IMG/VR virus record: IMGVR_UViG_3300037258_000549
Coordinates: 1 to 64,000 of that record
Source: a virus
Taxonomy: Duplodnaviria > Heunggongvirae > Uroviricota > Caudoviricetes
DNA: 64,000 nt
Direction: 5' to 3' (one strand)
In this document: one piece after another, positions 16,926-53,974 of the stretch
Position numbering within the stretch: position 1 is the first letter of the stretch
How the letters are laid out: each line of letters begins with the position of its first letter
Translations under genes and position numbers: made by a program
The notes under the pieces: model-generated
What the model saw: the letters and a program-made list of their open reading frames with translations, nothing else
What the model was told of the DNA's origin: nothing
The model's database searches: none

Positions 16926-17585
16926 GTGGAAATACGGCATTTCTATCACCTGTACCTCGACGGTGATGCGCCCTGGCGGGTGATCGCCGATGAGTACGCG
17001 GACGTCTTGCGGCTCGCGGGATTCCCGGTTGACCCGGTGGTGGGCCTGGTCGGTAAAGACCGCGGGGACGCGCGGTTGTGGGCAGCGGGCCGCCGGTGGG
17101 TAGTCGGTGCGGAAGCGGACACCGGGTTTGAGCAGGTAACCCTGGCCGTGCTGCAGGACCAGCTAGGGCAGCTGCCCGACGATACGGCGGTGCTGTACAC
17201 GCACAGTAAGGGGGCGATGCGGAACATGATCGCCGAGGACCAGTGGCGCCGGTCGATGCTCTGGCACCTGGTGTTCGGCTGGCAGCGGTGCGTGGAACTC
17301 CTGCAAGGGCACGATGTAGTGGGTTGTCACTGGCGGCATGGTAATCACTTCGCAGGGAACTTCTGGTGGGCGCGGGCGCGGTTCCTGCGAACCCTGCCGC
17401 TGGTGGATGCGGCGGAAGCTGACCGGTACTCCGCTGAGCTGTGGCTTGGCAGCGGGCGCCCGGGGCGGGTGGCCAACCTGGTGGAGGGCTTCCCTCCGGA
17501 CGGAACACGGGACGGGGCCATCTTGCTGTCAGAGCGGCTGCCGCGGAAATTTACCCGGCAGCGGCATATCTGGCCGCGCGGGTAA
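16926..17585 (+). CDS. Hypothetical protein, paralog of the 36768 gene
   Basis: GTG start. Shared motifs with the paralog: RH(F/Y)YH(L/I)Y-DG, Y(T/A)H(S/T)KGA, HD-VGCHW, AGNFWWA. The ORF track extends it upstream through the C-rich block (16755), which I consider unlikely. Confidence 0.5.
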   Translation: MEIRHFYHLYLDGDAPWRVIADEYADVLRLAGFPVDPVVGLVGKDRGDARLWAAGRRWVVGAEADTGFEQVTLAVLQDQLGQLPDDTAVLYTHSKGAMRNMIAEDQWRRSMLWHLVFGWQRCVELLQGHDVVGCHWRHGNHFAGNFWWARARFLRTLPLVDAAEADRYSAELWLGSGRPGRVANLVEGFPPDGTRDGAILLSERLPRKFTRQRHIWPRG

Positions 17586-17652
17586 TACTCTAGTAAGGAA
17601 AGCGCCCGGCCCCGCACGGGGAGCGGCTCAGCATCAAGTACATCGAGTTCTC

Positions 17653-19338
17653 GTGACCGCTGCTGAGTATCGTCTTCACGCTGTACCCGACGTTTTCCTG
17701 CCGGATGGCTCGGTGCTGCACGACTCACTTGTCGGCAGCCAGCGGCCCCGGTTCTGGACGGCCCCGCCGCGGCACCGGGATAAGCAGCCCGGGTGCACGT
17801 CCTGCGCGAAAGACGGCTATCGAGCGGGCTGCGGCGATTACGCAGCTGAGGAGCTGCTCGACTGGTGCCCGTCTTACGGGTACGAGCTGGACTCGTGGCA
17901 GCAGTGGTGGCTGAGCGAGGCGTGCGGGGTGCGCCCGGATGGCCGGTGGGCTGCATTCGAGTGCGCAAACGTAGCGTCCCGGCAGAATGGAAAAAACGTT
18001 CTACTGGAGGTTCGCGAGCTAGGCGGACTGTTCGTGTTCGGCGAGTCGATGATTATTCATACCGCCCATGAGTTCAAGGCGGCGGCCGAGCATTTCCGCC
18101 GGGTACGGGACACCATCACCGCTTACGATGACTTGTCGCGCCGGGTAAAGCGGATCATGACCAGCCACGGTGACGAGGCTATCGAGCTGCGCCCGGCACC
18201 CACGTTGATCTTCGGCGCCGGGGGCAAGCGGGTGCGCCGCAATATCGGTGGCCGACTGCGCTTCCTGGCCCGCTCCCGCGGCTCTGGGCGCTCGTTTACC
18301 GCTGACCTTGTTGTTTACGACGAGTCGATGTTCTTGTCGGATGAGCAGGTGGGCGCGTCTATGCCGACCATGTCCGCGGTGGCTAACCCGCAGATGATTT
18401 ACACGGCGTCAGCCGGCTACCACGACTCGGTGCAGCTGGCCATGGTGCGCCGTCGGATGCTGCGGCATGACCAGTCGCTGATGGGCGCGGAGTGGAGCAT
18501 CGACCCGCATACTGACCTGTGCCCCCGCGATGAGGTTCTCGGCCGGAAAACTAACCGGTACGTCATCTGCGACCGGCACGACGACCGCGATGACCCGCGC
18601 TCGTGGGCGAAGGCTAACCCGGCGTTCGGCACCCGGATCTCCTATGAGCACGTGCAGAAAGAGTTCAAGTCCATGTCGGCTGCCGCGTTCGACCGGGAGC
18701 GGCTGGGCGTCGGGGACTGGCCCGAGGAGGAGGAAAGCTGGACAGTCATCTCCGAGGAAAGCTGGGAGCGGTGCGCGCTGCCTGACCCGGGCGGCGCCGT
18801 GCGCCCGCTGGCCTTTGCCGTAGACGTGGACCCGCAAATGCGCTACTCCACCATTTCGGCGGCGTGGCAGCGGCCTGAGCTAGTCGGCGGGCCGCCGCGT
18901 ACCGTGCTGGAAATTCCACGCGGCTGCTCGAAAGAGGGGACCGGCTGGGTTATCCAGCGGCTGGTGGAGCTGCGGAGGCAATGGCGCCCGATCGCAGTGT
19001 GCTTCCCCAAGAACGGCCCCGCGGCTGGACTCGCTGACCAGGCTGAAAATGCCGGGCTAGAGGTCGTGCGTGCGAGCAGCGGGGATGAAGCTGAGGCGTT
19101 TTCACAGATGATTACCGCAATTAAAAGCAGGACGATCATCCACCTGGGTAAAGAGCAAGCCCCCGCACTCTGGAGCGCTATCGCCAGCGCAGAAACTAGG
19201 GTGGTGGGAGACGGCGGGCAGGCCTGGTCACGGAAGGATTCCGAAAGCGATATCACGCCTATCGTTGCGGCGACCCTGGCTAACTGGGCGCTGGGAAAGA
19301 AGCGCAGAAATTATGACCCCCGGAAATCCGTAGGTTAG
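17653..19338 (+). CDS. Terminase large subunit
   Basis: Conserved terminase ATPase/nuclease architecture (...LVVYDESMF..., ...IYTASAGYHD...). The N-terminal ~100 codons of the ORF look non-coding, so the start is placed at the in-frame GTG at 17653 (uncertain). Confidence 0.75.
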   Translation: MTAAEYRLHAVPDVFLPDGSVLHDSLVGSQRPRFWTAPPRHRDKQPGCTSCAKDGYRAGCGDYAAEELLDWCPSYGYELDSWQQWWLSEACGVRPDGRWAAFECANVASRQNGKNVLLEVRELGGLFVFGESMIIHTAHEFKAAAEHFRRVRDTITAYDDLSRRVKRIMTSHGDEAIELRPAPTLIFGAGGKRVRRNIGGRLRFLARSRGSGRSFTADLVVYDESMFLSDEQVGASMPTMSAVANPQMIYTASAGYHDSVQLAMVRRRMLRHDQSLMGAEWSIDPHTDLCPRDEVLGRKTNRYVICDRHDDRDDPRSWAKANPAFGTRISYEHVQKEFKSMSAAAFDRERLGVGDWPEEEESWTVISEESWERCALPDPGGAVRPLAFAVDVDPQMRYSTISAAWQRPELVGGPPRTVLEIPRGCSKEGTGWVIQRLVELRRQWRPIAVCFPKNGPAAGLADQAENAGLEVVRASSGDEAEAFSQMITAIKSRTIIHLGKEQAPALWSAIASAETRVVGDGGQAWSRKDSESDITPIVAATLANWALGKKRRNYDPRKSVG

Positions 19339-19342
19339 GGGG

Positions 19343-19905
19343 TATAATCGAGTCTGACGCCACACGAGGGTGGCTAGGCAAACCATCCCGGTACTGACGG
19401 GTCATTCCAGATCACCCCCACCCGGACCACCCCGACGTACCCGCCCTCCTCCGGCCCCATCTACTCCGCGCCCTACCGCGCCGACTTCTCACGCCTGCGC
19501 ATCCCAGCCCCGGCCCGTCCGACAAGCCACGCCTGATCAAGCCAACCCATGCCGACGTACCAGGCCTGTCCCAGCCAATCCGTCCCGGCCGACGTCCCAT
19601 CTCGGCCCTTGCCCAGCCATCCCTCGCCGACCAGCCCGGTCACGCCTGTCCTTGCCACACCCGGTCGACGTTCCATACCAGGCCGTTCCACTCCGACTGG
19701 CCATCCCGAGTCCAGCCGCCCCAAGTCACGCCGACAGCTCACAGCACGCCGTTCCCAGCCAGTCCGCACCGACGAACCAGGCCAGTCCCCCTCCTCCCGT
19801 CCCGGGCCGACGGTCCCTCCCAGTTCTTTCCGGTCCCTCCCATTCCTGCCCGACAAGCCACCCCATCCCACGTCCTCCCACCCCAGCTGACGGGCCACTT
19901 CACGA
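19343..19905 (+). repeat. Block C2: inverted (C-rich) copy of the repeat element, with perfect TATAAT and leader ACGCCACACGAGGGTGGCTAGGCAAACC
   Basis: GGGGGTATAATCGAGTCTG then the leader, then a ~530-bp CCGAC-rich tract. Lies just after the terminase stop. Confidence 0.7.
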
Positions 19906-20065
19906 CAGGAGCCGACGAACGAGCAGGAATAAGCTGTTGCTGGCGGGCATCGTGGTGTTCCTGGTTTTCGTTTTCCAGGACCCGGTGGGTACCGCGCACG
20001 CGCTGTCAACGGCCTGGCACCGCATCGTGGTGTTCATTGACAACGTGTGACACTAAGCTGGCGTC

Positions 20066-20362
20066 ATGGCTACTACGTCACCGCCGGTCACCCGGGCGGA
20101 TATCCCGGCCATCACCGATGACGTCCTGGCACGCGCCCGCTCGGTACGGCCTTCTCGTGTCCTGCTCACGGTGCTGGGAGCGATCGGCACGGTGCTCGGC
20201 TGGGTGCCCGGCCGGGCGTTTGTTGCCATTGGCTGGCTGGCCGGGCGCAGTTTCCTGATCGGCGCATTCTTCGTCGAGGCGGTCATTTACGGGTTCCGTC
20301 AAGGCGCGATGCTCGGGCCGAGGCAGCCAGAACAGCCGCCTAAGCCGCCAGAGTCTCGTTAA
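20066..20362 (+). CDS. Small membrane protein
   Basis: ATG start. Two hydrophobic helices. Confidence 0.45.
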   Translation: MATTSPPVTRADIPAITDDVLARARSVRPSRVLLTVLGAIGTVLGWVPGRAFVAIGWLAGRSFLIGAFFVEAVIYGFRQGAMLGPRQPEQPPKPPESR

Positions 20363-20363
20363 G

Positions 20364-20378
20364 TCTGCTGCAGTATCG
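20364..20378 (+). promoter_or_regulatory. Motif TCTGCTGCAGTATCG (copy e, free-standing), directly after the 20362 stop
   Basis: Member of the 15-mer family. The next downstream feature is a - strand HNH gene. Confidence 0.35.
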
Positions 20379-20539
20379 AATAATCCGCTGCTATGTGCGA
20401 AATCTGTTCAATGCGCGTACGCTAGGCGAGAATAGCTTTTTGCCCGCGGCCAGCGTAGGAGCCGGGCTCCGTTGCAAGCGGAGGGTTCCGGCGTCCGTTG
20501 AGTCAGGTTGGGGTAGGCACAGGCGCGCTAGTCGGCGTG

Positions 20540-21217
20540 TCAGCTGCTGCGTCGACTGCAATCCTTCCCGCTCAGTGCACGCGATATCGTCCCCCGGGCC
20601 AAGCTCATCCGCGTAGCGATAGCGTCCAATGTCATTCCGGTTGTACGCAACCGTTTTATCTCGGTGATGACTTCCGGGAACAGTTTGAAAGCTCGACTGT
20701 TCACCATCTGCTCGTGTGGAGTAGCCCAGCGGCAGTTACCGGGTTCGTAGTTTCCGGCACCATTAGGATAACGGTCGAGGGTCATACCGGACGGACGCTC
20801 ACCCATATCAGCCAGAAACGTGGGATAGTCCAGCCAGCGCTCGCATACGGCAATGCCACGTCCGCCGTAATTGACATAACGAGGGTCATCCTTCGGGTAG
20901 TTGACTCGCTGCAGCATCATCTTCCAGCTGTCGTACGTAGGGGTGTTCGACAGTCCGTGCGTGGTGTTGTAGGCAGTAGTCACGTCATGTCGCAGGCAGC
21001 CGCAGCTTTTGGTATTACCCGAGCGCAGCAAGCCGCCAGCAACGACCGTCTCAGCTCCGAAGTCGCAAATACATTGCCAGCGGGTTGTTCCGTGCGCGCC
21101 AGGTATGCGCGGTACTGGAGAAAGAGCTATCAGCCGTCCGAATCTCTGTCCCGTTATGTCGGGCGCTCGCTTGCCTGCCACATGGTTAATAATAGGTGGT
21201 ATTTCTACCTTCCTCAA
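20540..21217 (-). CDS. HNH endonuclease (HNH_3-like)
   Basis: Motif TLDRYPNGAGNYEPGNCRWATPHEQMVN resembles the HNH_3 core. Lies between the terminase and portal genes on the opposite strand. Confidence 0.55.
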   Translation of the reverse strand: MRKVEIPPIINHVAGKRAPDITGQRFGRLIALSPVPRIPGAHGTTRWQCICDFGAETVVAGGLLRSGNTKSCGCLRHDVTTAYNTTHGLSNTPTYDSWKMMLQRVNYPKDDPRYVNYGGRGIAVCERWLDYPTFLADMGERPSGMTLDRYPNGAGNYEPGNCRWATPHEQMVNSRAFKLFPEVITEIKRLRTTGMTLDAIATRMSLARGTISRALSGKDCSRRSS

Positions 21218-21240
21218 GCGCTTGGAAGGGGTGATGCGGC

Positions 21241-24219
21241 GTGGGCCTTATCGAACGTATAATGTCGGAGAGGCGTGCGGAGTCCAGAGCCCTGGGAGGC
21301 GTACCTTGGAAACCTTGGGACGATCCCCGGTGGCGTTTTAGCCAAGGCGGGCCGATTCATCCGACCCGCGCGATATACGGTACTGACAAAGCACTCGGCT
21401 TGCCCGCCTTGTACGCGTGCGTTCGGCTGATCGCTGACTCGACTGCTTCCCTGCCGCTGAAGATTTACACGACTGCTGGCTCGACGGGGCGCGGCGTTCG
21501 CTATGAGGGGCCGTCCATTTTCGATCAGCCTTCGGCGGATGGCACTATCTATGACTGGATTTTCCAGTGTATGACCTCGCTACTGCTGCATGGTAATGCC
21601 TGGGGACTGATTACCGGTCGCGACGGGTACGGCTTCCCGACCGGGATCGAGTGGCTGCCGCCGGACATGGTGGACGTGCAGGATGACCCGCAGCAGCCGT
21701 GGAATAAGATGCGCACCCGGGTGTTTGTATTCGGCCGTCAGATGGCTGACTGGCGCAATGAGTTGTTCCACGTTAAGGCGTTCTCACTACCCGGCCGGAC
21801 CGAGGGGATCTCGCCGCTGCGCGCGTTTGCGCTGACCATCCTTAACGGGATGGAGGCCGCCCGGTACGGCACCGACTGGTTCGCGGCCGGCGGCTTTCCA
21901 CCCGGCACCTTCCAAAACTGCGTTGACACTGAGACGGAGTTGCTAAGCCGCGACGGCTGGCTACGGTACGACCAGGTGAAACCCGGTACCGAGGCACTGA
22001 CGCTGAATACGGAAACAAGTCAGTCCGAATGGCAGCCGGTTAAGCGCGTGTACGTGAATGAGGGGCCGAACGAGGTCGTAGCGATGCGGAATCTTTCGCA
22101 CTCGTCGGTCTCCACGCCGAACCACCGCTGGCCCGCTGTAGCTCCCGGGGCAGCCGAAATTGCGTGGTACAGGACTTCGACGTTGCCTCTGGATGCGCAA
22201 CTGCTCATCAGTGAGACGGAGCGAACCGACAAGGTAGCTGACCTGGCTGTTAGGCAGGAGACGATTGACGGTCCGGTTTGGTGCCCGGTGACTGAGAATA
22301 AGACCTGGTTCGCCCGCCGGGATGGTACCTGCTATTTCACTGGCAATACCGAAATTGAGATTGATTCTACCGCCGCCGCCGAGATCCGTGAATCGCTAAC
22401 CACAGCCATTAGGAACAGGCAGCCGCTGGTTTACGGGCGGGACTGGGATTACAAGCCGGTTGTGGTGCCGCCGTCAGAGGCTCAATTTATCGAAAGCCTG
22501 CAACTTAATGCTACGCAAATTGCTGCCATTTACGGATTGCCCGCGGAAAGGGTTGGCGGCCTCAAGAGTTCGTCACTGACCTACTGCGCGGACGGTGAAA
22601 CGGAGATCCTGACCCGGCGTGGCTGGCTGCGTTATGACCAGGTGACGACCGCAGATACCTGCTTGGGCCTGGATATCAAAACGGGGCTGTCGCGGTGGCA
22701 GCGGGTTCAGGCGGTAAACGTCTTTGATGACGGCCCGTACGACGTGATCCGCCTGGAGAACAGTACGCACTCCTCGGTGACGACGCCGAACCACCGCTGG
22801 CCGATAATGCTGTCTGGCGTGACCCGGACTCGGGAGGGCTGGCAGTGGCGGACTACGGAGACGCTGCCCGCGGACGCCCGGATCTGCGCGGCGGCCCCGG
22901 TCGAAGCGCCTGAGCCGAAGTGGTCGGATGCGACGGTAGAGCTGGTGGCCTGGTTGTGGACAGAGGGCCATATCGATCCGTACGGAGGCGTGCAGCTAAC
23001 CCAGTCGCAGCGAGTTAATCCGGGGAACGTGGCGCGAATCCGGGCTGCACTGACTGAGATATTCGGCCCGGCGGCGGAGAAGTTGCATGTCCGGTCCCGG
23101 CCGTCGTGGCGGGAAGATTATCACGACGACCGTGGAATCGTTCAGTTTCGGTTGAATGCTTTGGCTGGAGCAGTACTAACGCAGCATGCACCCGGCAAGG
23201 TAGTGAGCACGGAGTTCCTGGCATCGCTGACCCGGGCGCAGCTGGAATTGTTTTACCAGGTGTCGATAGATGCGGACGGGTGGCGGCGGCTTAATGGCCG
23301 GGCGTCCAGCTTGGCACAGAAAGACCGTGCCCGCCTTGACGCGTTCCAGATCGCGTGCGCGCTGACCGGTCGCTCGGGAGTAGTGCGTCAGCTTCCCACA
23401 AGCGGCCAGTGGTATATGGCCGTGCAAGTCACATCCTGGCGTAAGCCAGCCGGTCACCCGGAGTACAAGAGCCGAGAAACGGTGCCGCTGGTCTGGTGCC
23501 CGACGACGCCGAGCGGGACGTGGTTCGCCCGGCGCAACGGGACCACGTACTTTACCGGAAATACTAATGTCGAGATGTCGGCGCTGCAGATCATTGAGGC
23601 GCTGCGCCCGTGGCTGGTCCGGCTGGAGACGGCGTTTTTCGCGTTGCTGCCAACCAGTCGTTACACCCGGTTCTACACCGACGCGCTGCTGAAGACCGAC
23701 CTGGCGTCCCGGGCGAACATTTACAAGATCTTCCGGGATGTCGGCATCCGCACTGTTGATGAGCTGCGCGAGCTGGAAGACCTGGAGCCGATGCCGAAAG
23801 GCGTGGGTTCGGAGGCGATTCCGCACGAGATCATGGTCCAGCTGGTCCGGGCTGGCGTGGTGCAGGGCGTGCCCACCTCGCTGCTGCCCGCGCTCACCCT
23901 GGACACTGACCTGCTCGTCCCGGTGCTGGAGAAGCTGCAGGCGCAGGGCCTGGCCGCGGCGGCCGTACCAGGTAAGGCGCCGGTGCAGGAAAGCCCGCAG
24001 GGCCAGGTTGGCATGTCTATCGACAAGCTGCGCGGCTTCGGGGACATCGATCCTGTTGACGTGGACCAGATGGTCGCCATCTTGCAGAAGGCAGCGCGTA
24101 AGCAGCGGCTGCGTGAGCAGCAGGCAAGCGGCCCGGATTACATCGGCCCGTGGATTCCGTCCGAGGAAGAGCTGGCCCGGCTGACCGCGGCCAATGGCAA
24201 CGGAAACGGCAGGCACTGA
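21241..24219 (+). CDS. Portal protein precursor with two inteins (mature exteins total ~523 aa)
   Basis: Portal-like N- and C-terminal exteins. The ORF is interrupted in-frame by two self-splicing elements (next two features). GTG start (alternative ATG at 21262). Confidence 0.8.
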   Translation: MGLIERIMSERRAESRALGGVPWKPWDDPRWRFSQGGPIHPTRAIYGTDKALGLPALYACVRLIADSTASLPLKIYTTAGSTGRGVRYEGPSIFDQPSADGTIYDWIFQCMTSLLLHGNAWGLITGRDGYGFPTGIEWLPPDMVDVQDDPQQPWNKMRTRVFVFGRQMADWRNELFHVKAFSLPGRTEGISPLRAFALTILNGMEAARYGTDWFAAGGFPPGTFQNCVDTETELLSRDGWLRYDQVKPGTEALTLNTETSQSEWQPVKRVYVNEGPNEVVAMRNLSHSSVSTPNHRWPAVAPGAAEIAWYRTSTLPLDAQLLISETERTDKVADLAVRQETIDGPVWCPVTENKTWFARRDGTCYFTGNTEIEIDSTAAAEIRESLTTAIRNRQPLVYGRDWDYKPVVVPPSEAQFIESLQLNATQIAAIYGLPAERVGGLKSSSLTYCADGETEILTRRGWLRYDQVTTADTCLGLDIKTGLSRWQRVQAVNVFDDGPYDVIRLENSTHSSVTTPNHRWPIMLSGVTRTREGWQWRTTETLPADARICAAAPVEAPEPKWSDATVELVAWLWTEGHIDPYGGVQLTQSQRVNPGNVARIRAALTEIFGPAAEKLHVRSRPSWREDYHDDRGIVQFRLNALAGAVLTQHAPGKVVSTEFLASLTRAQLELFYQVSIDADGWRRLNGRASSLAQKDRARLDAFQIACALTGRSGVVRQLPTSGQWYMAVQVTSWRKPAGHPEYKSRETVPLVWCPTTPSGTWFARRNGTTYFTGNTNVEMSALQIIEALRPWLVRLETAFFALLPTSRYTRFYTDALLKTDLASRANIYKIFRDVGIRTVDELRELEDLEPMPKGVGSEAIPHEIMVQLVRAGVVQGVPTSLLPALTLDTDLLVPVLEKLQAQGLAAAAVPGKAPVQESPQGQVGMSIDKLRGFGDIDPVDVDQMVAILQKAARKQRLREQQASGPDYIGPWIPSEEELARLTAANGNGNGRH
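21919..22347 (+). mobile_element. Mini-intein 1 in the portal (143 aa)
   Basis: Begins with Cys (CVDTETELLSRDGW). Block B TPNH. Ends in ...YFTGN followed by Thr (+1). Confidence 0.65.
22585..23562 (+). mobile_element. Intein 2 in the portal (326 aa), with a LAGLIDADG-type homing-endonuclease domain
   Basis: Begins with CADGETEILTRRGW. Block B TPNH. Internal LWTEGHIDPYGG and YQVSIDADGW (LAGLIDADG-like). Ends in ...YFTGN followed by Thr. Paralogous to intein 1. Confidence 0.65.
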
Positions 24220-24240
24220 TGCCGTCGAAAGGAAATTAAA

Positions 24241-25275
24241 ATGGATGAGCACAGGGCCGCTATGTCAGCTGCTGATATGAACAATCTTCCCGATGAGGCA
24301 TTCGCCTATGTGGAGCCGGGTGGGAAAAAAGACGCGGGCGGTAAGACGATCCCGCGGAGCAAGCGGCATTTCCCGATTCACGACGAGGCGCACGTCCGGA
24401 ATGCCTTGTCGCGCGCGCCGCAGAGTCCGTTCGGTAAGCTGGCGCTGCCCAAGATCATGTCCGCAGCCAAGCGCTTTAACGTCAAGGTTTCCGGCGCGCA
24501 GCGGTCCGCCTTCGGCGAGACGTCGATTCAGGAGAGCAGCGCCTTCCCCGAGCGCCGGTTCACCCGGTTCCCGCTGGAGGTGCGCACCGAGCCGAACGGC
24601 GGCCCAAAGCACATTTACGGCTACGCGGCCTGCTTCAACAAGCTGAGCCGCAAGCTGGGCGGGTTCGTCGAGCAGGTGAACAACACGGCATTCAATGAGT
24701 CCCGGCATGACAACTGGCCGGATGTGGTGTGCCGGTTCAACCACAAGGACGACCTGCTGCTCGGTACCACGCACGCGCACACCCTGGACCTGAAGCTTGA
24801 CGACACCGGGCTGGCTTATAACGTGATCCCGCCGCAGTCGCGGGCTGACATCCTGGAGTACGTGGACCGCGGTGACGTGCGGCACTCTAGCTTCGCGTTC
24901 CGGGTTTTCCCCGGCGGGGACGAGTGGGGCGTGTCGGAGTTCAACTACCCGATGCGCACCCTGACCTCGGTGCAGCTGGTGGACGTGGCCCCGGTGCTCG
25001 ACCCCGCCTACCCCGACTCGACGGCCGCCGCGCGGGCGCTCAACGGCGCGGTGGAGTCACTGGCCAGCTGGGTACAGGGCGATACCGAGGAGGTCCGGTC
25101 CCGGTTGTCGGAGGGGCGCGCGATGGAGTTCTTCAAGCGTACCGACAACATCGGCCCGGCCGCCCAGCAGCGCCAGCTGGTCAAGACGCCCGCTAAGCCG
25201 GTGCTGTCCGGCGCACAAGCGATGCTCACCATGCTGGCCAACATGGAAGACCCGTACGCTGACGACGAGGGTTAA
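24241..25275 (+). CDS. Prohead (capsid maturation) protease, HK97 S78 family
   Basis: RBS AAAGGAAA then ATG. N-terminal KRHFPIHDEAHVRNALSR domain. Protease core ...LLGTTHAHTLDLKLDDTGL...GDVRHSSFAF. Confidence 0.7.
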   Translation: MDEHRAAMSAADMNNLPDEAFAYVEPGGKKDAGGKTIPRSKRHFPIHDEAHVRNALSRAPQSPFGKLALPKIMSAAKRFNVKVSGAQRSAFGETSIQESSAFPERRFTRFPLEVRTEPNGGPKHIYGYAACFNKLSRKLGGFVEQVNNTAFNESRHDNWPDVVCRFNHKDDLLLGTTHAHTLDLKLDDTGLAYNVIPPQSRADILEYVDRGDVRHSSFAFRVFPGGDEWGVSEFNYPMRTLTSVQLVDVAPVLDPAYPDSTAAARALNGAVESLASWVQGDTEEVRSRLSEGRAMEFFKRTDNIGPAAQQRQLVKTPAKPVLSGAQAMLTMLANMEDPYADDEG

Positions 25276-25420: not shown

Positions 25421-26683
25421 ATGGCCTCTGAGGTGGCAAAACGCCTCCGTGATAGAAGGCTCTCCGTCTGGAATGAGGCGAAGAAAATCGCCGAGGACGC
25501 GGCCGGCGAGAACCGTTCCTTCAGCCCGGAAGAGCAGGGCCGCTGGGACGCGATGCAGGAAGAGATGTCCACCCTGGACACTCGCATCAAGGCCGTCCTG
25601 GACACCGAGAAGCGCGCTAAGGACGCCGACGACAGCTACAACGCGCTGACGGAAAAGCCGACTGAGCGCGGTACTCCGGCGCAGTCCGCTGCCGCGGACG
25701 AGATCCGCAAGTGGGCGCGGGGTGAGTCCGGTCCCAAGTCGATGGAGTTCCGGCACAACACCGACGCCACCGGTCCGATCAACTACCGCGTGCTGACTAC
25801 CGCCGGGCAGTCTAGTGGCACCAACGCCAGCTCCATCGTGCCGACCGACTTCTACGACATGCTGATCGCGCACCTCATTGAGGTGTCCGGCGTCATGCAG
25901 TGCGGACCTACCGTGCTGAACACCGGCGGCGGCGAGACGCTGCAGATCCCGAAGACCACGGCGCACACCGCGGTGACCGCGCAGTCGACGCAGGCGGGCA
26001 ACCTGCTGACCGGCGTTGACCCGGCGTTCTCGATGGCCACCCTGTCGGCGTATAAGTACGGCGTGCTCATCCAGGTGGCCCGCGAGCTGATTGACGATAC
26101 GGCGGTCGATTTGCTCGGCTACCTGGCCATGCAGGCCGGCCGTGCGCTCGGTAACAAGTTCGGTTCTGATCTGGTCAACAGCACCAGCGCGCCGACCGGG
26201 CTGCTCACCGGGACCGTGACCTCCAGCCCGGGTGTGACCGGGGCGACCACCGGCGCGGGCGGCGCGCCCAGCTACGCCAACCTGGTGGACCTGGAGTACT
26301 CGGTCATCGCGCCGTACCGTCAGTCCCGGTCCTGCTACTGGCTGGCCGCCGACAAGACAATTGGCGGGTTCCGCAAGATCACCGACACCGTCGGGCGCCC
26401 CATCTGGGAGCCTTCGGCGGTGCTCGGCTCGCCCGACTTGCTGCTCGGCAAGCCGCTCGTCGCTGACCCGTTCATGCCGGCCCAGGCGACCAGTGCGTTC
26501 TCCATCGTCTTCGGTGACTTCAGCCAGTTCTTCGTTCGCCTGGTGGGTGGCGTTCGATTCGAACGTAGTGACGACTTCGCCTTCGGTTCGGACCTCGTTT
26601 CGTTTAGGGCCATCCTTCGTGGGGACGGTACCCTAGTCGACCAAACCGGGGCGATAAAATCCTATAAAGGTGCATCTGCCTGA
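25421..26683 (+). CDS. Major capsid protein (HK97 fold) with an N-terminal delta/scaffold-like coiled coil
   Basis: RBS AAAGGAG then ATG. 420 aa. Charged coiled-coil N-terminus followed by HK97-like core. Lies downstream of the protease. Confidence 0.8.
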   Translation: MASEVAKRLRDRRLSVWNEAKKIAEDAAGENRSFSPEEQGRWDAMQEEMSTLDTRIKAVLDTEKRAKDADDSYNALTEKPTERGTPAQSAAADEIRKWARGESGPKSMEFRHNTDATGPINYRVLTTAGQSSGTNASSIVPTDFYDMLIAHLIEVSGVMQCGPTVLNTGGGETLQIPKTTAHTAVTAQSTQAGNLLTGVDPAFSMATLSAYKYGVLIQVARELIDDTAVDLLGYLAMQAGRALGNKFGSDLVNSTSAPTGLLTGTVTSSPGVTGATTGAGGAPSYANLVDLEYSVIAPYRQSRSCYWLAADKTIGGFRKITDTVGRPIWEPSAVLGSPDLLLGKPLVADPFMPAQATSAFSIVFGDFSQFFVRLVGGVRFERSDDFAFGSDLVSFRAILRGDGTLVDQTGAIKSYKGASA

Positions 26684-44630: not shown

Positions 44631-45164
44631 ATGTCCTGGACGACTAATACTCCTAATAGCAGGATTTTTTCGCAGGCGATGCTTAACCCGATCGGTCGCG
44701 CGGTAAATGCAGGAACAGCGCCGACCTCGTTTGTCAGCCTTACCGCAACCAGTGAAGTATACGTCGCGCTGTACGGGAACTCCGGCACCCCGGATGCCAC
44801 GGCATTGGTAGGCCTGACCGGATATAACGCGTCTACCTCGGCCTGGGTGACAGCGAATGAGACGACTGGCACTAACTACTCAGCGGGCGGGCAGGCGCTG
44901 TCTACCCCGGGTGCGGTGACTTTCATTCAAGACAGCTCGGCCTTCTCAATTTGCTATCACGCTTCGCCCCTGGTCTGGTCGACGGCGTCCTTTACCGCGT
45001 ACGGTTGCCTGGTTTATGACAACGTGATCTCCGGTGGCACTGTGTCTAAGCAGGGCATGTGCTATAACTACTTCGGTGGATCGCAGACGGTAACTACCGG
45101 TACGTTCACGGTGAACTGGGCCACCGTAGGCGCGACGACTGCTGTCTTCAATATTGCCGTTTAG
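44631..45164 (+). CDS. Minor-tail-like protein A1, paralog of the 53501 gene
   Basis: RBS AAGGACAGCGAGG then ATG. Shared NE(T/V)TGTN(Y/W)S-GG and (Y/F)GC-(V/I)Y-N...TGTF-(V/I)-WNT-G(A/V) motifs. Confidence 0.55.
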   Translation: MSWTTNTPNSRIFSQAMLNPIGRAVNAGTAPTSFVSLTATSEVYVALYGNSGTPDATALVGLTGYNASTSAWVTANETTGTNYSAGGQALSTPGAVTFIQDSSAFSICYHASPLVWSTASFTAYGCLVYDNVISGGTVSKQGMCYNYFGGSQTVTTGTFTVNWATVGATTAVFNIAV

Positions 45165-46104: not shown

Positions 46105-46676
46105 TGCGGGTTATGGTCAGTCATGCTGGCACCGTGCACGCGAACTGCGCTGCCGCGCTGCGCGCGCATGTCCCGGCGGCGGAGTACGTGCAGGTGGATA
46201 CCGATGACGACCAGTCCTACGCCCGGCTGATCGGGGAGCGCTGGACGGGGCGCGACGACCTGGTGCTTATCGAGCACGACAACGAGGTTACCGCTGAGGT
46301 GCTGCCGTCGTTTGCCGCCTGCCCGCAGCCGTGGTGCACCTATGAATATGAGATCTTCCCGCCGCCCTGGACCCGCTGGTGCGACACGGGGCTGGGCTGC
46401 GCCCGGTTCACCGCCGCGCTGCAGCGCGAGTTCGACTTCGCCGCCGAGATCCTGAAAGCTTGCGGAAGCTGCGGGGGCACGCATGTGCACTGGGGTACCG
46501 TTGACGTTCAACTGGCCGCCGGGCTGGCCAGTCGGCACCTGTCACCGCATGTGCACGGGCGCATCCGCCATTTTCACCCGTACCGGGCACTGGAACCGGA
46601 TGCGAACGGGGAGTTTCCGGCATTCGGTCCGCTCCTGGAAGAAGTTAACGGTGAGTTCCGCCGGGTAACAGGGTGA
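46104..46676 (+). CDS. Hypothetical Cys-rich protein
   Basis: TGATG overlap start. 190 aa. Confidence 0.45.
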   Translation: MRVMVSHAGTVHANCAAALRAHVPAAEYVQVDTDDDQSYARLIGERWTGRDDLVLIEHDNEVTAEVLPSFAACPQPWCTYEYEIFPPPWTRWCDTGLGCARFTAALQREFDFAAEILKACGSCGGTHVHWGTVDVQLAAGLASRHLSPHVHGRIRHFHPYRALEPDANGEFPAFGPLLEEVNGEFRRVTG

Positions 46677-46680
46677 GCCG

Positions 46681-49600
46681 GTGACTGTCGCCTTTGTTCA
46701 GTCTAATGACTCCAACGGCAGCACTGCCACCACGCTGTCGGCGACCGGGCTGGGCAACACCGTTGCTTACCTTATCTTCTCGTACAACGACACGGCGATT
46801 ACTTTCGCCTCGTCGTCCCCGACAGTCGGCGGGTCAGCCTACCCAGCTGCCTATCTTGCATACTCCGCGCAGACTGCGGGCGCCGAAGCCGTCTGGTTCG
46901 CGATCTGGGTGTTCCCGGATGTCCCGTCTGGCGCGACCGTATTCAGTACTACCCTTACCGCCGGCGTCATGGACACCAACGTCGGGTCGGCAGCGCTGGA
47001 ATTTAGCGGTCTCGGGGCAGCTCCGGTTGTAGACGTGGATGTATCGGCCCCCGGGACGACAGCGGGCCTGTCTTCGGGCGCGTCACCGACTAATAACTAC
47101 GCTCCCGAGCTGGTCATCGGCGCGGGTGTCGAGTACGGCGTCGTCGTTACCGCGCCGGGCGGCTCATGGCTGGGGACGCTGCAGCCAGGGGATAACGACT
47201 ACTGCATCGTCAACTACCAGATCGCCACCACGTCCGGTAACTCGTACACTTACAATCCCGGGAGCGCTTCAGGTAGCCCGTGGGTAGCAGGTCTCGTCAC
47301 CATCACGGCGGCGCTAGCACCGGTAATCACTACCACGTCCCTGCCGGGTGCAGCCCAGGGCCAGGCCTACTCGGCCACTCTGGCTGCTACTGGCGGTGCT
47401 GGCGGGTACACCTGGGCGGTTACCTCCGGGTCACTGCCCGGCTGGGCGACGCTCAGCTCCGGGGTGATCAGCGGGACTGTCTCCGGCTCAGCCGCGGTCA
47501 CCACGTTCACTGCTACGGTCACCGACTCGGCCAGCAACACCGCCTCGCAGGTGCTGACCCTGGCGGTCGAGGTCAACCTGGCGCTCACGTCGGCCATCCC
47601 CGGCAGTGCCGTGCCGGGTATATTCACCCCCGGCCAGCTGGTAGCTAGCGCCGTTAACGCGACCGCCAGTGCCGGGCTCGCTGCCGCGACCGGAGCGGCT
47701 AAGGCGCCAGCGGCTGCCATCGGTACGGCAACCGGGCTTGCTGCTGCTACTGGCGCTGCGAAACCGCCCGCGGTCCGGCTTGATGCGAATGTCACGGCCG
47801 GGCTCGCTGCCGCGACTGGAGCGGCTAAGGCGCCAGCGGCTGCCATCGGTACGGCAACCGGGCTGGCAAGTGCCACCGGCACCGCCCAGCCGCCCGCGGT
47901 CCAGCTTGATGCGAATGTCACGGCCGGGCTCGCCACCGCCGCGGGAGCAGCTAAAGCGCCAGCGGTTACGGCGGGCACGGCAACCGGACTGGCAAGTGCC
48001 ACCGGCACCGCCCAGCCGCCTGCAATTCGGCTTGATGCGACTGTCACGGCCGGGCTCGCTGCCGCGACCGGGACCGCGGGGGCTTCCCTAGCTGCCGTTG
48101 GCACAGCAGCTGCGCTCGCCGCTGCTACCGGACTCGCAAAGCCGCCCGCGGTCCGGGGGGACGTCAGTACTACGACCGGGCTGGCAAGTGCTACCGGTAC
48201 CGCCGAGCCGCCCGCGGTCCGGGGGGACGTCAGTACTACGGCCGGGCTGGCAAGTGCCACTGGCACCGCCCAGCCGCCCGCGGTCCGGCTTGATGCGAGT
48301 GTCACGGCCGGACTCGCCGTTGCCACCGGGATGGCGGGTCCACCGCTCACTACCGTTGGCACAGCAACCGGGATGGCAAGTGCCACTGGCACCGCCCAGC
48401 CGCCCGCGGTCCGGCTTGATGCGAGTGTCACGGCCGGGCTGGCAAGTACCAGTGGTGCTGCGAAGCAGCCAGCAGCCCGGGTCGACGCGAATGTCGCGGC
48501 CGGGCTGGCAAGTGCCACTGGCACCGCCCAGCCGCCCGCGGTCCGGCTGGATGCGAGTGTTACCGCTGGGCTTGCTGCTGCTACCGGGACGGCCGAGCCG
48601 TCGCCGGTCACCGTCGGTACCGCAACCGGGCTTGCTGCTGCTACCGGAGTCGCTCAGCCGCCTGCAATTCGGCTTGACGCGACTGTCGCCGCCGGACTGG
48701 CTGCTGCTACTGGAGTTGCCCAGCCGGCCTCGGTTAACACGACCGGTAACGCGACCGTCACCGCTGGGCTAGCAGCGGGCACCGGGACCGGGTCACTGCC
48801 CACCGTTCAGCTGAGCGCGGCAGCGGGACTAGCGGCGGCAACGGGTACCGGGTGGCTGGCCGCTACCGGGCGGGTGGCTGACCTGGCAGCTGCTACCGGG
48901 TCCGGGTCACCGCCAACGGCTCAGCTGACCATGGCGACCGGGCGTGCGGCGGGCACCGGGACCGCGCAGCAGCCGGCGGTGCGACTCGACGCGAGTGCCG
49001 CGGCTGGGCTGGCTACCGCTACCGGGTCCGGGCAGCCGCCCGCTGCTGTCATCGTCTTCGCCACCGGGCTGGCGGCCGGTACCGGAACCGGGTCAGCGCC
49101 AACAGCCCAGGTGGCTGCCGTAGCCGGGCTGGCGGCGGGCAGCGGGACCGCGCAGCCGGCGGCGGTGCGGCTGGATACTAGTGCTAGTGCCGGGCTCGCT
49201 GTCGCGACCGGGACCGCGCAGCAGCCGTCGGCCAATACGACGGGCAACGCGAATGTTACGGCCGGGCTTGCCGTCGCGACCGGGACCGCGCAGCCGCCTT
49301 CGGTCAGCATCACCGGTAACGCGTCCCCGGGTGCCGGACTAGCCAGCGCGACCGGAACCGGGTCAGCGCCCAGCGCCCAGGTGACAACAGCGACCGGGCT
49401 CGCTGCTGCTACCGGTGCGGCAAAGCCACCGGCGGTGCGGCTTGATGCCAGCGCCACCGCCGGGCTGGCGGCGGCCACCGGGACCGCGCAGCCGCCCTCG
49501 GTCAGCATCACCGGTAATGCTTCGCCAAGTGCTGGGCTGGCTGCTGCTACCGGGATCGCGCAGCCGCCCTCGGTTAGCACGACCGGTAACGCCTCGCCGG

Positions 49601-53514: not shown

Positions 53515-53974
53515 TTGGACGGAAAGCGGACTGTTTTTTGCTACCTGGCGCGATATGCTTAAGGATGCCACGTCTGTTAGCTTGGTTGACACTAATAATA
53601 ACCTCGCGCTGGTCAGCAATACTGAGACGCCTGATTATATCTCAGCCACTGACCCGTCCACCTGGACAACGACTAATGAGGTAACTGGAACCAACTGGTC
53701 GTCCGGTGGGATTAACTTGAGTACCGGCAGCTACGGCCCGACGGTCACCCAGAGTCCAAGTAAGACACTGATGTGGGACATGACTAATAACGTCGCCGTG
53801 GCTAGTACTACCATTACTGGTGCATATGGCTGCTATATCTATGCCAATGGGCTAAGTCCGAAGGCAAAGATTATCGGTGTCTGGTTCGGCGGCACTGGCT
53901 ATTCCACAGTGGCGGGCACTTTTGCTATTACCTGGAATACTTTGGGCGTAGCAACTATCCAAATGGCGGCATGA
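53501..53974 (+). CDS. Minor-tail-like protein A2, paralog of the 44631 gene
   Basis: GTG start. Conserved SWT N-terminus and C-terminal motifs shared with A1. Confidence 0.55.
   Translation: MIPVSWTESGLFFATWRDMLKDATSVSLVDTNNNLALVSNTETPDYISATDPSTWTTTNEVTGTNWSSGGINLSTGSYGPTVTQSPSKTLMWDMTNNVAVASTTITGAYGCYIYANGLSPKAKIIGVWFGGTGYSTVAGTFAITWNTLGVATIQMAA

What the first reader, a model, noticed from the sequence alone, without database searches (positions are those of the whole stretch)
21241..24219. Portal gene carrying two paralogous inteins, the second with a LAGLIDADG-type endonuclease domain
- **Split portal.** Portal-like sequence is split into three exteins (21241-21918, 22348-22584, 23563-24219; ~523 aa spliced).
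- **Shared intein features.** Both insertions start with Cys (CVDTETELLSRDGW and CADGETEILTRRGW). Both carry block-B TPNH. Both end in ...WFARR-GT-YFTGN followed by Thr (+1), with Gly in place of the usual penultimate His.
- **Intein 2** additionally contains LWTEGHIDPYGG and YQVSIDADGW (LAGLIDADG-like), which points to an active homing endonuclease.
- Two related inteins in one structural gene implies intein duplication or ectopic homing within the same protein. Portal maturation would depend on double splicing.
Basis: partly seen in the sequence, partly recalled or inferred. Interest (0 to 1): 0.7.

Follow-up and report, generated by a model that had tools for sequence, protein, structure and literature searches.

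The report
Phage portal gene with two inteins
A phage portal (DNA-entry) gene is interrupted by two related self-splicing protein elements (inteins), one small and one carrying a homing endonuclease; this is real but is a further example of a kind already known in phages of actinobacteria.

Summary
ORF 21241-24219 (+) encodes a 992-aa precursor. Removing aa 227-369 (143 aa) and aa 449-774 (326 aa) gives a 523-aa protein that matches the Pfam and TIGRFAM HK97-type portal models end to end in one stretch. It also aligns without gaps to 67 intein-free portal homologues across both junctions.

Both inserts are confidently predicted HINT folds (pLDDT 93.5 and 94.5). Insert 2 also contains a two-motif LAGLIDADG endonuclease domain, as conserved as the splicing domain. 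Homologues sit in unrelated proteins (terminase, methylase, endolysin amidase, tail tube).

The inteins are paralogous but not a recent duplication. Each belongs to a clade specific to its insertion site, with about 60% identity between them in the splicing blocks.

The family is large (3740 cluster representatives) and invisible to the Pfam and NCBIfam intein models. Its signature is Cys1, TxxHRW, VWC, TGN, then Ser/Thr. This is the class 3 "WCT" triplet plus a retained N-terminal Cys. The closest solved structure is a proven class 3 intein.

In 21 of 136 family representatives one protein carries two or three copies. A 95%-identical relative has site 1 empty and a mosaic mini-intein at site 2.

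Verdict: a real, well-supported new member of a known kind. The splicing chemistry is unresolved.

The parts
21241..24219 (+). Portal precursor gene. It encodes 992 aa (110 kDa); the predicted spliced portal is 523 aa (57.7 kDa).
   Evidence: ORF. Pfam PF04860 and TIGR01537 matches. Masses.
21241..21918 (+). Extein 1 (aa 1-226), ending ...GGFPPGTFQN.
   Evidence: The motif GGFPPGTFQN|[STNA]EIEID is continuous in 67 intein-free homologues.
21919..22347 (+). Intein 1, a 143-aa mini-intein with no endonuclease. Key residues: Cys1 (21919-21921), block B TPNHRW (22114-22131), block F VWC (22276-22284), and TGN followed by Thr+1 (22339-22350).
22348..22584 (+). Extein 2 (79 aa). Only 237 bp separate the two insertion sites.
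22585..23562 (+). Intein 2, a 326-aa full-length intein. Key residues: Cys1 (22585-22587), block B TPNHRW (22783-22800), block F VWC (23491-23499), and TGN followed by Thr+1 (23554-23565).
   Evidence: AlphaFold2 pLDDT 94.5, pTM 0.91. Foldseek top hits are intein-endonucleases: TliVMA at E 2.8e-16, then PI-SceI and PI-PfuI.
22924..23454 (+). LAGLIDADG homing-endonuclease domain of intein 2 (about aa 114-290 of the intein). Motif 1 is TVELVAWLWTEGHI (22933-22974, catalytic E127). Motif 2 is QLELFYQVSIDADGW (23239-23283, catalytic D231).
   Evidence: Helix-then-strand pattern at aa 115-130 and 217-234. I-DmoI and I-Tsp061I fold matches. T126, E127, G128, D231 and G232 are invariant in the 45 full-length portal relatives; more distant family members depart from E127/D231. 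Mean pairwise identity is 60% in this domain against 64% in the N-terminal splicing domain.
23563..24219 (+). Extein 3 (aa 775-992 plus stop), beginning TNVEMSALQIIEALR.
   Evidence: The motif GDSLTY|[SNA][TN]VEQ is continuous in intein-free homologues.

Best explanation
This is the HK97-family portal gene of a (pro)phage of a high-GC actinobacterium. It is interrupted in frame by two inteins of one divergent family.

**Splicing (inferred).** The gene is translated as a 110-kDa precursor. Each insert folds into a HINT domain and excises itself, joining ...TFQN to TEIEID... and ...SLTY to TNVEMS.... The products are a 57.7-kDa portal and free inteins of 16 kDa and 36.5 kDa.

**Chemistry (inferred from conserved residues).**
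- A thioester forms at the N-terminal junction, made either by Cys1 (class 1 route) or by the block-F Cys of the WCT triplet (class 3 route).
- The N-extein is transferred to Thr+1.
- The terminal Asn cyclises. Because the penultimate residue is Gly, this step is probably assisted by the invariant block-B Arg rather than a penultimate His, as shown for the AceL NrdHF intein.
- An O-N shift completes the peptide bond.

**Mobility (inferred).** Intein 2 keeps an apparently functional LAGLIDADG homing endonuclease. It should cut intein-free portal alleles at site 2 and be copied in by repair. Intein 1 has lost its endonuclease. It persists by vertical descent, and it could be co-converted with intein 2, which lies only 237 bp away.

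**Origin.** The two inteins come from site-specific lineages that diverged long ago. They were not duplicated in this genome.
For: **Host gene and insertion points**
- The spliced product matches portal profiles end to end.
- 67 intein-free homologues are gapless across both junctions.

**Both inserts are inteins**
- Confident HINT and HINT+LAGLIDADG models match solved inteins.
- In 47 portal-borne copies these residues are invariant: C1, T/H/R/W of block B, VWC of block F, and the terminal N. The TG before it is kept in 46 of 47.
- The same signature holds in 157 copies from 136 representative proteins.

**The family is mobile**
- It occurs inside Gordonia phage Woes gp8 (annotated 'contains intein'), Belphegor portal, GMA3 TerL and Pinkcreek gp135.
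- It occurs in Dorothy gp75, with the same boundaries as the published DNMT-2 intein.
- It also occurs in amidases, tail tube and other proteins.

**Origin and exchange**
- Inteins cluster by insertion site.
- The close relative L006 has site 1 empty and a mosaic mini-intein at site 2.

**Endonuclease.** The domain is as conserved as the splicing domain.

**Asn cyclisation.** The Arg(B:11)/Gly(G:6) pairing and its role in AceL NrdHF are described in PMC7891396.
Against: - There are no biochemical data. Splicing, endonuclease cleavage and homing are all inferred.
- Neither insert matches any Pfam or NCBIfam intein, Hint or LAGLIDADG model at E<=1.
- Sequence-only searches of the PDB give only a marginal hit, Spl DnaX at E 0.025-0.05. 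Intein identity therefore rests on predicted fold, motif logic and comparative genomics.
- The penultimate His is missing.
- The splicing route (class 1 or class 3) is undecided.
- Co-conversion of intein 1 is speculation.
Confidence: 0.88

Rival explanations
1. Recent intragenic duplication or ectopic homing: intein 1 is a fresh copy of intein 2, or the reverse, made within this genome.
For: - Both inteins are of the same family with the same catalytic signature.
- The target sites share AC|AC..A..T.GAGAT.
- Recombination between the two lineages has happened in a relative.
Against: - Identity is only 47% and 75% in the N- and C-terminal splicing parts, and nucleotide identity is 33-86% per 12-codon window.
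- int1 is 79-86% identical to the site-1 inteins of other portals in the splicing blocks, against about 60% to int2.
- The target-site match of 15/48 (11/24 centrally) lies within the spread of other in-frame positions in the gene.
Confidence: 0.04
2. The inserts are decayed or non-splicing HINT-like domains (for example BIL-type cleavage domains, or domesticated insertions). The gene would then be a pseudogene, or the portal would function with the domains in place.
For: - No match to curated intein HMMs.
- No penultimate His.
- Intein 1 lacks an endonuclease.
Against: - Every catalytic position is intact in both copies and invariant across the family.
- The C-terminal Asn plus Thr+1 is the intein pattern, not the BIL pattern.
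- The insertions lie inside the two most conserved portal motifs, where a 143-aa or 326-aa domain would hardly be tolerated.
- The ORF is intact.
- A penultimate Gly is documented in working inteins (PMC5050341, PMC7891396).
Confidence: 0.04
3. A rival about the chemistry only: both inteins splice by the ordinary class 1 route. Cys1 is the sole N-terminal nucleophile, and the block-F Cys plays only a structural or assisting role.
For: - Cys1 is present in 155 of 157 copies. Classical class 3 inteins usually have a non-nucleophilic first residue: 34 of 37 in PMC2807308.
- Sequence similarity to the verified class 3 Catera gp206 intein is insignificant (E about 0.04).
- One operational definition of class 3 excludes an N-terminal Cys (PMC7891396).
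Against: - The full WCT triplet is invariant and has the same F:4-to-G:7 spacing (21 residues) as Catera gp206.
- WCT inteins with Ser1 or Cys1 exist, and Catera gp206, which has Ser1, is treated as class 3.
Confidence: 0.4

Closest known systems
Actinobacteriophage portal-protein inteins (Gordonia phage Woes gp8, annotated 'contains intein'; Belphegor gp9; mycobacteriophage cluster C1 'PORT' inteins of Kelley et al. 2016, PMC5050341; portal groups in Gosselin et al. 2025, bioRxiv 10.1101/2025.01.02.630785)
   Same: - An intein sits inside a phage portal gene of an actinobacterial phage.
- The Woes and Belphegor inteins belong to the same family (37-39% identity to int2) and share C1, TxxHRW, VWC and TGN.
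   Different: - Those phages carry one intein, in a portal so different that tblastn aligned only the intein.
- Here an HK97-type portal carries two copies, at sites 226/227 and 305/306.
Mycobacteriophage DNMT-2 intein (Dorothy gp75; Kelley et al. 2016)
   Same: Same family (30% identity). My alignment boundaries reproduce the published intein coordinates 46269-47249 exactly.
   Different: The host protein is a DNA methylase, and the residue at B:12 is Val rather than Trp.
AceL NrdHF class 3 split intein (PDB 6ZGQ; Hoffmann et al. 2020, PMC7891396)
   Same: - It shares Arg at B:11, Cys at F:4, Thr-Gly-Asn at G:5-7, a Ser/Thr at +1, and no penultimate His. It also lacks the F:13 His; by my own residue counting, not a tool result, neither intein here has a His there.
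   Different: - It is naturally split and has no endonuclease.
- It has Met instead of Trp at B:12.
- It was picked out as class 3 under a definition that excludes an N-terminal Cys; I did not see its first residue.
- Sequence identity is only 13%.
Mycobacteriophage Catera gp206 (Cas4/RecB) class 3 intein
   Same: It combines the WCT triplet with an N-terminal nucleophile (Ser1), has Thr at +1, has the same Cys(F:4)-to-Asn spacing, and carries a LAGLIDADG endonuclease motif (LLGAWLGDGD).
   Different: It keeps the penultimate His (THN). Sequence similarity to this family is insignificant (E about 0.04). Its host protein is different.
Bifunctional LAGLIDADG inteins PI-SceI, PI-PfuI and TliVMA
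   Same: A HINT splicing domain with an inserted two-motif LAGLIDADG endonuclease. These are the best Foldseek matches to the int2 model (E 1e-11 to 3e-16).
   Different: They are class 1 inteins with a penultimate His and larger DNA-recognition regions. Sequence identity is 9-13%.
Proteins with two inteins, for example Mycobacterium smegmatis DnaB (DnaBi1 + DnaBi2; PMC6195587)
   Same: Two inteins must both splice out of one essential protein.
   Different: The DnaB inteins are of different classes (DnaBi1 is class 3; that DnaBi2 is class 1 I take from memory). Here the two are paralogues of one family.

Membership tests
Intein (HINT-domain protein-splicing element) | An in-frame insertion in a conserved host protein that is precisely absent from homologues. 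| tested here: met
   67 intein-free portals are gapless across both junctions. The 95%-identical P0002 has site 1 empty.
Intein (HINT-domain protein-splicing element) | A Cys/Ser/Thr at position 1, block B T-x-x-H, a C-terminal Asn, and a Cys/Ser/Thr at +1. | tested here: met
   Both copies have C1, TPNH...GN|T. These are invariant in the family.
Intein (HINT-domain protein-splicing element) | Penultimate His (block G:6). This is common but not obligatory. | tested here: not met
   Gly in both copies, and TGN in 151 of 157 family copies. Functional inteins with Gly here are documented (PMC5050341, PMC7891396).
Intein (HINT-domain protein-splicing element) | HINT fold. | tested here: met
   [not shown]
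Intein (HINT-domain protein-splicing element) | A match to curated sequence models (Pfam Intein_splicing, Hint, Hom_end_hint; NCBIfam). | tested here: not met
   No family at E<=1 for either insert. The family profile against the PDB gives only Spl DnaX at 0.041.
Intein (HINT-domain protein-splicing element) | Autocatalytic protein splicing. | not testable with these tools
   This needs expression and mass spectrometry.
LAGLIDADG homing endonuclease (double-motif, intein-borne) | Two LAGLIDADG helices, each ending in an acidic residue, within an alpha-beta-beta-alpha-beta-beta-alpha pseudo-dimer fold. | tested here: met
   Helices at aa 115-127 and 217-231 are each followed by strands. E127 and D231 are invariant in the 45 full-length portal relatives. 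Fold matches to I-DmoI, I-Tsp061I and PI-SceI.
LAGLIDADG homing endonuclease (double-motif, intein-borne) | A match to Pfam LAGLIDADG_1, LAGLIDADG_2 or LAGLIDADG_3. | tested here: not met
   No hit at E<=1.
LAGLIDADG homing endonuclease (double-motif, intein-borne) | Site-specific cleavage of the intein-free allele. | not testable with these tools
   Only indirect support is available: the endonuclease domain is as conserved as the splicing domain.
Class 3 intein | The WCT triplet: Trp at B:12, Cys at F:4, Thr at G:5. | tested here: met
   int1 has W71, C122 and T141. int2 has W72, C305 and T324. The spacing equals that of Catera gp206.
Class 3 intein | A non-nucleophilic first residue (original definition; PMC2807308, PMC7891396). 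| tested here: not met
   Cys1 in both copies and in 155 of 157 family copies. This is not an absolute criterion: 3 of 37 WCT inteins have Ser1 or Cys1, and Catera gp206 has Ser1.
Class 3 intein | Ser or Thr at +1. | tested here: met
   Thr at both sites. In the family: Ser 82, Thr 64, Cys 10.
Class 3 intein | Common descent with known class 3 inteins. | tested here: inconclusive
   Sequence similarity to Catera gp206 is not significant. Even so, the nearest structure is the class 3 AceL NrdHF intein, which shares the R/C/TGN residues.
Class 3 intein | A block-F branched thioester intermediate, with Cys F:4 essential and residue 1 dispensable. | not testable with these tools
   This needs mutagenesis.
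HK97-family phage portal protein (PF04860 / TIGR01537) | A full-length profile match above the curated cut-off. | tested here: met
   The spliced protein scores 188.9 bits against a cut-off of 39.1, and 143.2 bits against 112.05. PDB portal hits reach E 2.5e-33. The gene lies between TerL and an S78 protease plus capsid gene.

The most novel reading that the evidence does not exclude
This large intein family has an invariant Cys1 together with an invariant class 3 WCT triplet and an Arg(B:11)/Gly(G:6) pair. It may be a mechanistic hybrid or evolutionary bridge between class 1 and class 3 inteins. One possibility is that both cysteines act in turn: Cys1 thioester, then Cys F:4 thioester, then the Thr+1 ester. 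Another is that the two cysteines form a redox switch. Either would bear on the published argument that class 3 inteins cannot have evolved stepwise from class 1 (PMC7664689). A further reading is that the shared linker of the endonuclease-less mini-inteins, found at three different insertion sites, spreads by recombination between paralogous inteins.
Probability: 0.2. Interest if true: 0.7.

Novelty: new member of a known kind. Interest (0 to 1): 0.4.

Why it matters
**As found.** This is a clean, fully delimited case of an essential virion protein whose assembly must wait for two independent protein-splicing events. Natural controls are at hand: empty alleles for both sites, a near-identical relative with a different intein complement, and full-length and mini forms at the same site.

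**For annotation.**
- A family with thousands of members is missed by the Pfam and NCBIfam intein models. Portal, terminase, endolysin and tail genes that carry it are therefore called as over-long 'hypothetical' or 'portal' proteins.
- The public gene call for this very gene is truncated at the N-terminus: 936 aa against 992 aa.

**For intein biology.**
- The family gives a compact 143-aa mini-intein with Thr+1 and no penultimate His, which could be a useful tool.
- It is a natural test of whether the WCT triplet alone predicts the class 3 mechanism when Cys1 is retained.

Tried and rejected
- **Curated HMMs.** Pfam and NCBIfam scans of the isolated inserts found no family at E<=1. PHROGs gave only a marginal hit to an intein-bearing thymidylate synthase family.
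- **DNA similarity.** blastn of the gene against 50,697 phage records found no match.
- **Sequence searches of the PDB.** Single sequences and a family profile gave only portals and a marginal Spl DnaX hit. Intein identity had to come from predicted structure.
- **Target-site similarity.** Comparing the DNA of site 1 and site 2 as evidence for ectopic homing gave 15/48 matches overall and 11/24 centrally. This is not distinguishable from other in-frame positions of the gene, so I rejected it as evidence.
- **Base composition.** GC and GC3 of inteins against exteins gave no clear foreign signal.
- **Bacterial genomes.** The first alignment for the search for related loci was too diverse. The second returned one 1-kb contig. 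I therefore could not test whether the Thermobifida fusca Tfu2914 intein belongs to this family.
- **Source contig.** Looking up P0001 returned 'not on record'.
- **Literature.** Tori & Perler 2011 (J Bacteriol 193:2035) is not held. What I say about it rests on citing papers and on memory.
- **Tandem repeats.** A scan of 19000-21300 found none.
- **Model geometry.** Coordinates are not exposed, so I could not measure the Cys1 to Cys F:4 distance.
Full report
**1. Observation**

The window has one uninterrupted ORF at 21241-24219 (+), 992 aa, with a GTG start.
- Extein 1: aa 1-226.
- Insert 1: aa 227-369 (nt 21919-22347, 143 aa).
- Extein 2: aa 370-448.
- Insert 2: aa 449-774 (nt 22585-23562, 326 aa).
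- Extein 3: aa 775-992.

Homologues align from residue 1, so the GTG at 21241 is the likely start. The public gene call P0001 (936 aa) starts 56 codons too late.

**2. The host gene is an HK97-type portal and the inserts are precise**

The unspliced protein hits Pfam Phage_portal in three pieces. The conceptually spliced 523-aa protein hits it in one piece covering profile positions 1-321 of 321 (E 1.7e-55). It hits TIGR01537 portal_HK97 over positions 3-342 of 343.

A search of 5.8 billion proteins returned many portals 50-63% identical to the spliced protein. Sixty-seven of them, 545-610 aa long, contain neither insert. They align without a single gap across both junctions:
- Site 1: GGFPPGTFQN|[STNA]EIEID.
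- Site 2: GDSLTY|[SNA][TN]VEQ.

It has been run, and it fails to refute.

The neighbours are those expected of a head module: large terminase (17338-19338), an HNH-endonuclease-like gene on the minus strand (20540-21217), an S78 prohead protease (24241-25275) and the major capsid protein (25421-26683).

**3. The inserts are inteins**

Sequence models do not see them. There is no Pfam or NCBIfam family at E<=1, and only a marginal PDB sequence hit to the Spl DnaX mini-intein. Three independent lines of evidence do identify them.

(i) Predicted structure:
- AlphaFold2 models built on alignments of homologues are confident. Insert 2 has pLDDT 94.5 and pTM 0.91. Insert 1 has pLDDT 93.5.
- Insert 2's best Foldseek matches are intein-endonucleases: TliVMA at E 2.8e-16, then PI-SceI and PI-PfuI. 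After those come free LAGLIDADG enzymes such as I-DmoI and I-Tsp061I.

(ii) Catalytic logic:
- Both copies start with Cys, carry block B T-P-N-H-R-W, and end in T-G-N followed by Thr.
- In an alignment of 47 portal-borne copies these residues are invariant: C1, T/H/R/W/P of block B, V-W-C of block F, A-R-R-x-G-T, and the terminal N. The T-G before it is kept in 46 of 47.

(iii) Mobility:
- The same element sits inside unrelated proteins of sequenced phages: Woes gp8 (annotated 'contains intein'), Belphegor portal, GMA3 TerL, Pinkcreek gp135 and Dorothy gp75 methylase.
- For Dorothy, my boundaries reproduce exactly the coordinates published for the 'DNMT-2' intein by Kelley et al. 2016 (46269-47249).
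- In metagenomes it also interrupts Amidase_2 endolysins, DPPY-motif methylases, SPP1-type portals, tail tube and other proteins.

**4. The endonuclease**

Insert 2 has two helix-then-strand units, at aa 115-130 and 217-234. They carry TVELVAWLWTEGHI and QLELFYQVSIDADGW. The acidic residues at the helix ends, E127 and D231, are invariant in all 45 full-length portal relatives; some more distant family members depart from them.

Mean pairwise identity across those 45 is 60% in the endonuclease domain, against 64% in the N-terminal and 70% in the C-terminal splicing regions. The domain is therefore under constraint and probably active. This is an inference.

Insert 1 has no such domain. A 36-residue linker joins block B to block F.

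**5. Relationship between the two inteins**

They are paralogues, but old ones. Identity is 47% over the N-terminal 95 aa and 75% over the last 24 aa.

In a neighbour-joining tree of the splicing blocks, the inteins of this portal family form one group relative to the phage outgroups. Within that group they sort by insertion site:
- A site-1 clade: int1 with the full-length inteins of P0005 and P0038, at 79-86% identity.
- A clade at about aa 261 (RDW[DE]Y|C...).
- Several site-2 groups, using three adjacent sub-sites: SLTY|[TS]N, SLTYN|TVEQ and SM|TYANVE.

The tree has no bootstrap support values, so the branching order among clades should not be over-read.

The DNA of the two target sites is not convincingly similar: 15/48 matches overall and 11/24 centrally.

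The family has therefore switched sites within this portal more than once in the past. The two copies here most likely arrived separately, by homing or recombination from portals already carrying them.

Canonical, Pfam-detectable inteins occupy further sites at EAQF[LI]E[AS]| in P0011, P0044 and P0065. An 80-residue stretch of this portal is thus an intein hot-spot.

**6. A close relative shows gain, loss and recombination**

P0002 is a portal 95% identical over its best local alignment, which covers 24% of the query; piecewise its exteins are 91-96% identical. It is found on 27 metagenome contigs, and I used locus L006. L006 differs from the window in three ways:
- Site 1 is empty: GGFPPGTFVN|TEIEID. 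Thr+1 is kept, and there are five substitutions in the nine bases around the junction.
- Site 2 carries a 143-aa mini-intein.
- The terminase carries a 1.2-kb intein that the window's terminase lacks.

The L006 mini-intein is a mosaic:
- Codons 1-72 and 121-143 are int2-like, at 81-94% nucleotide identity.
- Codons 73-120, the linker that replaces the endonuclease, are int1-like, at 69-78% against 47-58% to int2.

At sites that distinguish int1 from int2, the counts are 11:77 in the flanks and 50:20 in the middle (Fisher p = 1.6e-14). The breakpoints were chosen after inspection.

The same linker (..WY.T.TLP.DAQLLISE.ERTDKV.DLA..) also occurs in mini-inteins inside a 174-aa structural protein, P0171-P0174. 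The window's own homologue of that protein, at 44631-45164, is intein-free: TGTF|TVNW.

The endonuclease-less form is therefore a shared derived cassette, exchanged between inteins at different sites.

**7. Splicing class**

That triplet defines class 3 inteins (PMC2807308).

Evidence that points towards class 3:
- The spacing from the block-F Cys to the terminal Asn is 21 residues. This equals the spacing in the Catera gp206 intein, which has Ser1, WCT and THN|T and is treated as class 3.
- The nearest solved structure, AceL NrdHF, is a biochemically proven class 3 intein. It has Arg at B:11, Cys at F:4, Thr-Gly-Asn at the C-terminus and Ser+1. In it the Arg compensates for the missing penultimate His, and a Gly-to-His change abolishes activity (PMC7891396). 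The present family has the same Arg, Cys and TGN set.

Evidence that points away from class 3:
- Cys1 is kept in 155 of 157 family copies. Classical class 3 inteins usually lack an N-terminal nucleophile, and one operational definition requires its absence.

I rate a class 3-type role for the block-F Cys at about 0.6. I leave the function of the invariant Cys1 unexplained.

From memory only: Tori & Perler 2011 showed that WCT inteins with Ser1 or Cys1 use the class 3 route. I could not read that paper.

**8. Size of the family and frequency of double copies**

An exhaustive phmmer search of 1.84 billion cluster representatives with int2 found 3740 proteins at E<=1e-3 and 669 at E<=1e-30.

Of the 136 new proteins among the best 150, 21 contain two or three copies of this same family. 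In some the copies are only 3-12 residues apart.

Across the 157 copies in those proteins:
- Cys1 in 155.
- TGN in 151.
- TxxH[RK]W in about 143.
- The +1 residue is Ser in 82, Thr in 64 and Cys in 10.

Two paralogous inteins in one gene is therefore a recurrent habit of this family, not a peculiarity of this window.

**9. Comparison with the literature and verdict**

These points are already described:
- Inteins in actinobacteriophage portal, terminase, methylase and other genes.
- Both splicing classes in these phages.
- Penultimate Gly.
- Mini-inteins.
- 'Extein switching'.

The sources are Kelley et al. 2016 (PMC5050341) and Gosselin et al. 2025 (bioRxiv 10.1101/2025.01.02.630785). Proteins with two inteins are also known, for example M. 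smegmatis DnaB (PMC6195587).

The finding is therefore a real, precisely delimited new member of a known kind.

The parts I did not find described in the papers I could read are these:
- The family-wide coupling of Cys1 with WCT and Arg/Gly.
- The family's invisibility to curated HMMs.
- The high rate of paralogous double insertions.
- The shared mini-intein linker at three sites.

These are leads, not established novelties. All functional statements (splicing, cleavage, homing, co-conversion) are inferences that need the experiments listed under next steps.

Noticed in passing
window 58961-59035 (-) and 60038-60110 (-): ARAGORN calls a tRNA with a CTA anticodon (reported as 'tRNA-Pyl', so it would read the amber stop codon) and a tRNA-Ile(GAT). 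A suppressor-type tRNA in a phage-like region could signal TAG recoding.
   Followed up: no
window 20540-21217 (-): A 225-aa ORF on the opposite strand lies directly upstream of the portal start. It matches the PHROG HNH-endonuclease families (phrog_374, E 5.4e-57) and has a C-terminal HTH. It is probably a free-standing homing endonuclease between terminase and portal. In relative L006, window 20721-21240 (most of the ORF) still aligns at 81% nucleotide identity, while about 213 bp (20507-20721, its 3' end) have no counterpart and only a 79-aa gene is called there.
   Followed up: partly
window about 17997/18004 (terminase gene 17338-19338) compared with L006:989-2209: The terminase of relative L006 carries a roughly 1.2-kb insertion with a Pfam LAGLIDADG_3 hit, so it is an intein. 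The insertion sits at the point corresponding to window 17997/18004. The window's terminase is the intein-free allele.
   Followed up: partly
window 44631-45164 (+): A 177-aa structural-looking protein is 50% identical to the extein of P0171-P0174. In those metagenome proteins the gene is interrupted at ...TAGTF|T[IV][IV]W by a mini-intein of the same family with the same linker as int1. The window copy is intein-free (TGTF|TVNW). A weaker paralogue lies at 53582-53947.
   Followed up: partly
L006:8010-9098, compared with window 24219-24241: The relative has an extra 362-aa gene with no Pfam hit between the portal and the prohead protease. In the window the two genes are 21 bp apart.
   Followed up: no
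P0011, P0044, P0065 (portal homologues); corresponds to window extein 2, about nt 22480-22520: Other portals of this family carry canonical inteins ending in ...VTHN|T. In P0044 and P0065 these are Pfam-detectable (LAGLIDADG_3, and Intein_splicing in P0065); the P0011 mini-intein has no precomputed Pfam intein hit. They sit at EAQF[LI]E[AS]|..|TQMNA. P0011 and P0044 thus combine two inteins of different families in one portal.
   Followed up: partly
P0207, P0268, P0308 and 18 other representatives: Twenty-one of 136 representative proteins carry two or three copies of this intein family. In some the copies are separated by only 3-12 extein residues, for example P0308 (680-825 and 829-1165).
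   Followed up: partly
window 19370-20050: This stretch between terminase and portal has long Pro/Ser/Thr/Arg-rich ORFs in several frames on both strands. It has no tandem repeat and no Pfam hit. Only short patches are shared with L006.
   Followed up: no
window 48001-50000, inside ORF 46681-50217: GC rises to 73.5%, against about 63% elsewhere, inside a 1178-aa ORF. I did not examine this further.
   Followed up: no
L006 around 6675/6679, compared with window 21910-21918: At the empty site 1 of the 95%-identical relative, five of the nine bases around the insertion point differ from the window (TTCGTGAAT|ACG against TTCCAAAAC|ACC), changing Gln to Val. The surrounding 40 bp are otherwise well conserved. 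This could be a target-site change that protects against homing, or it could be chance.
   Followed up: no
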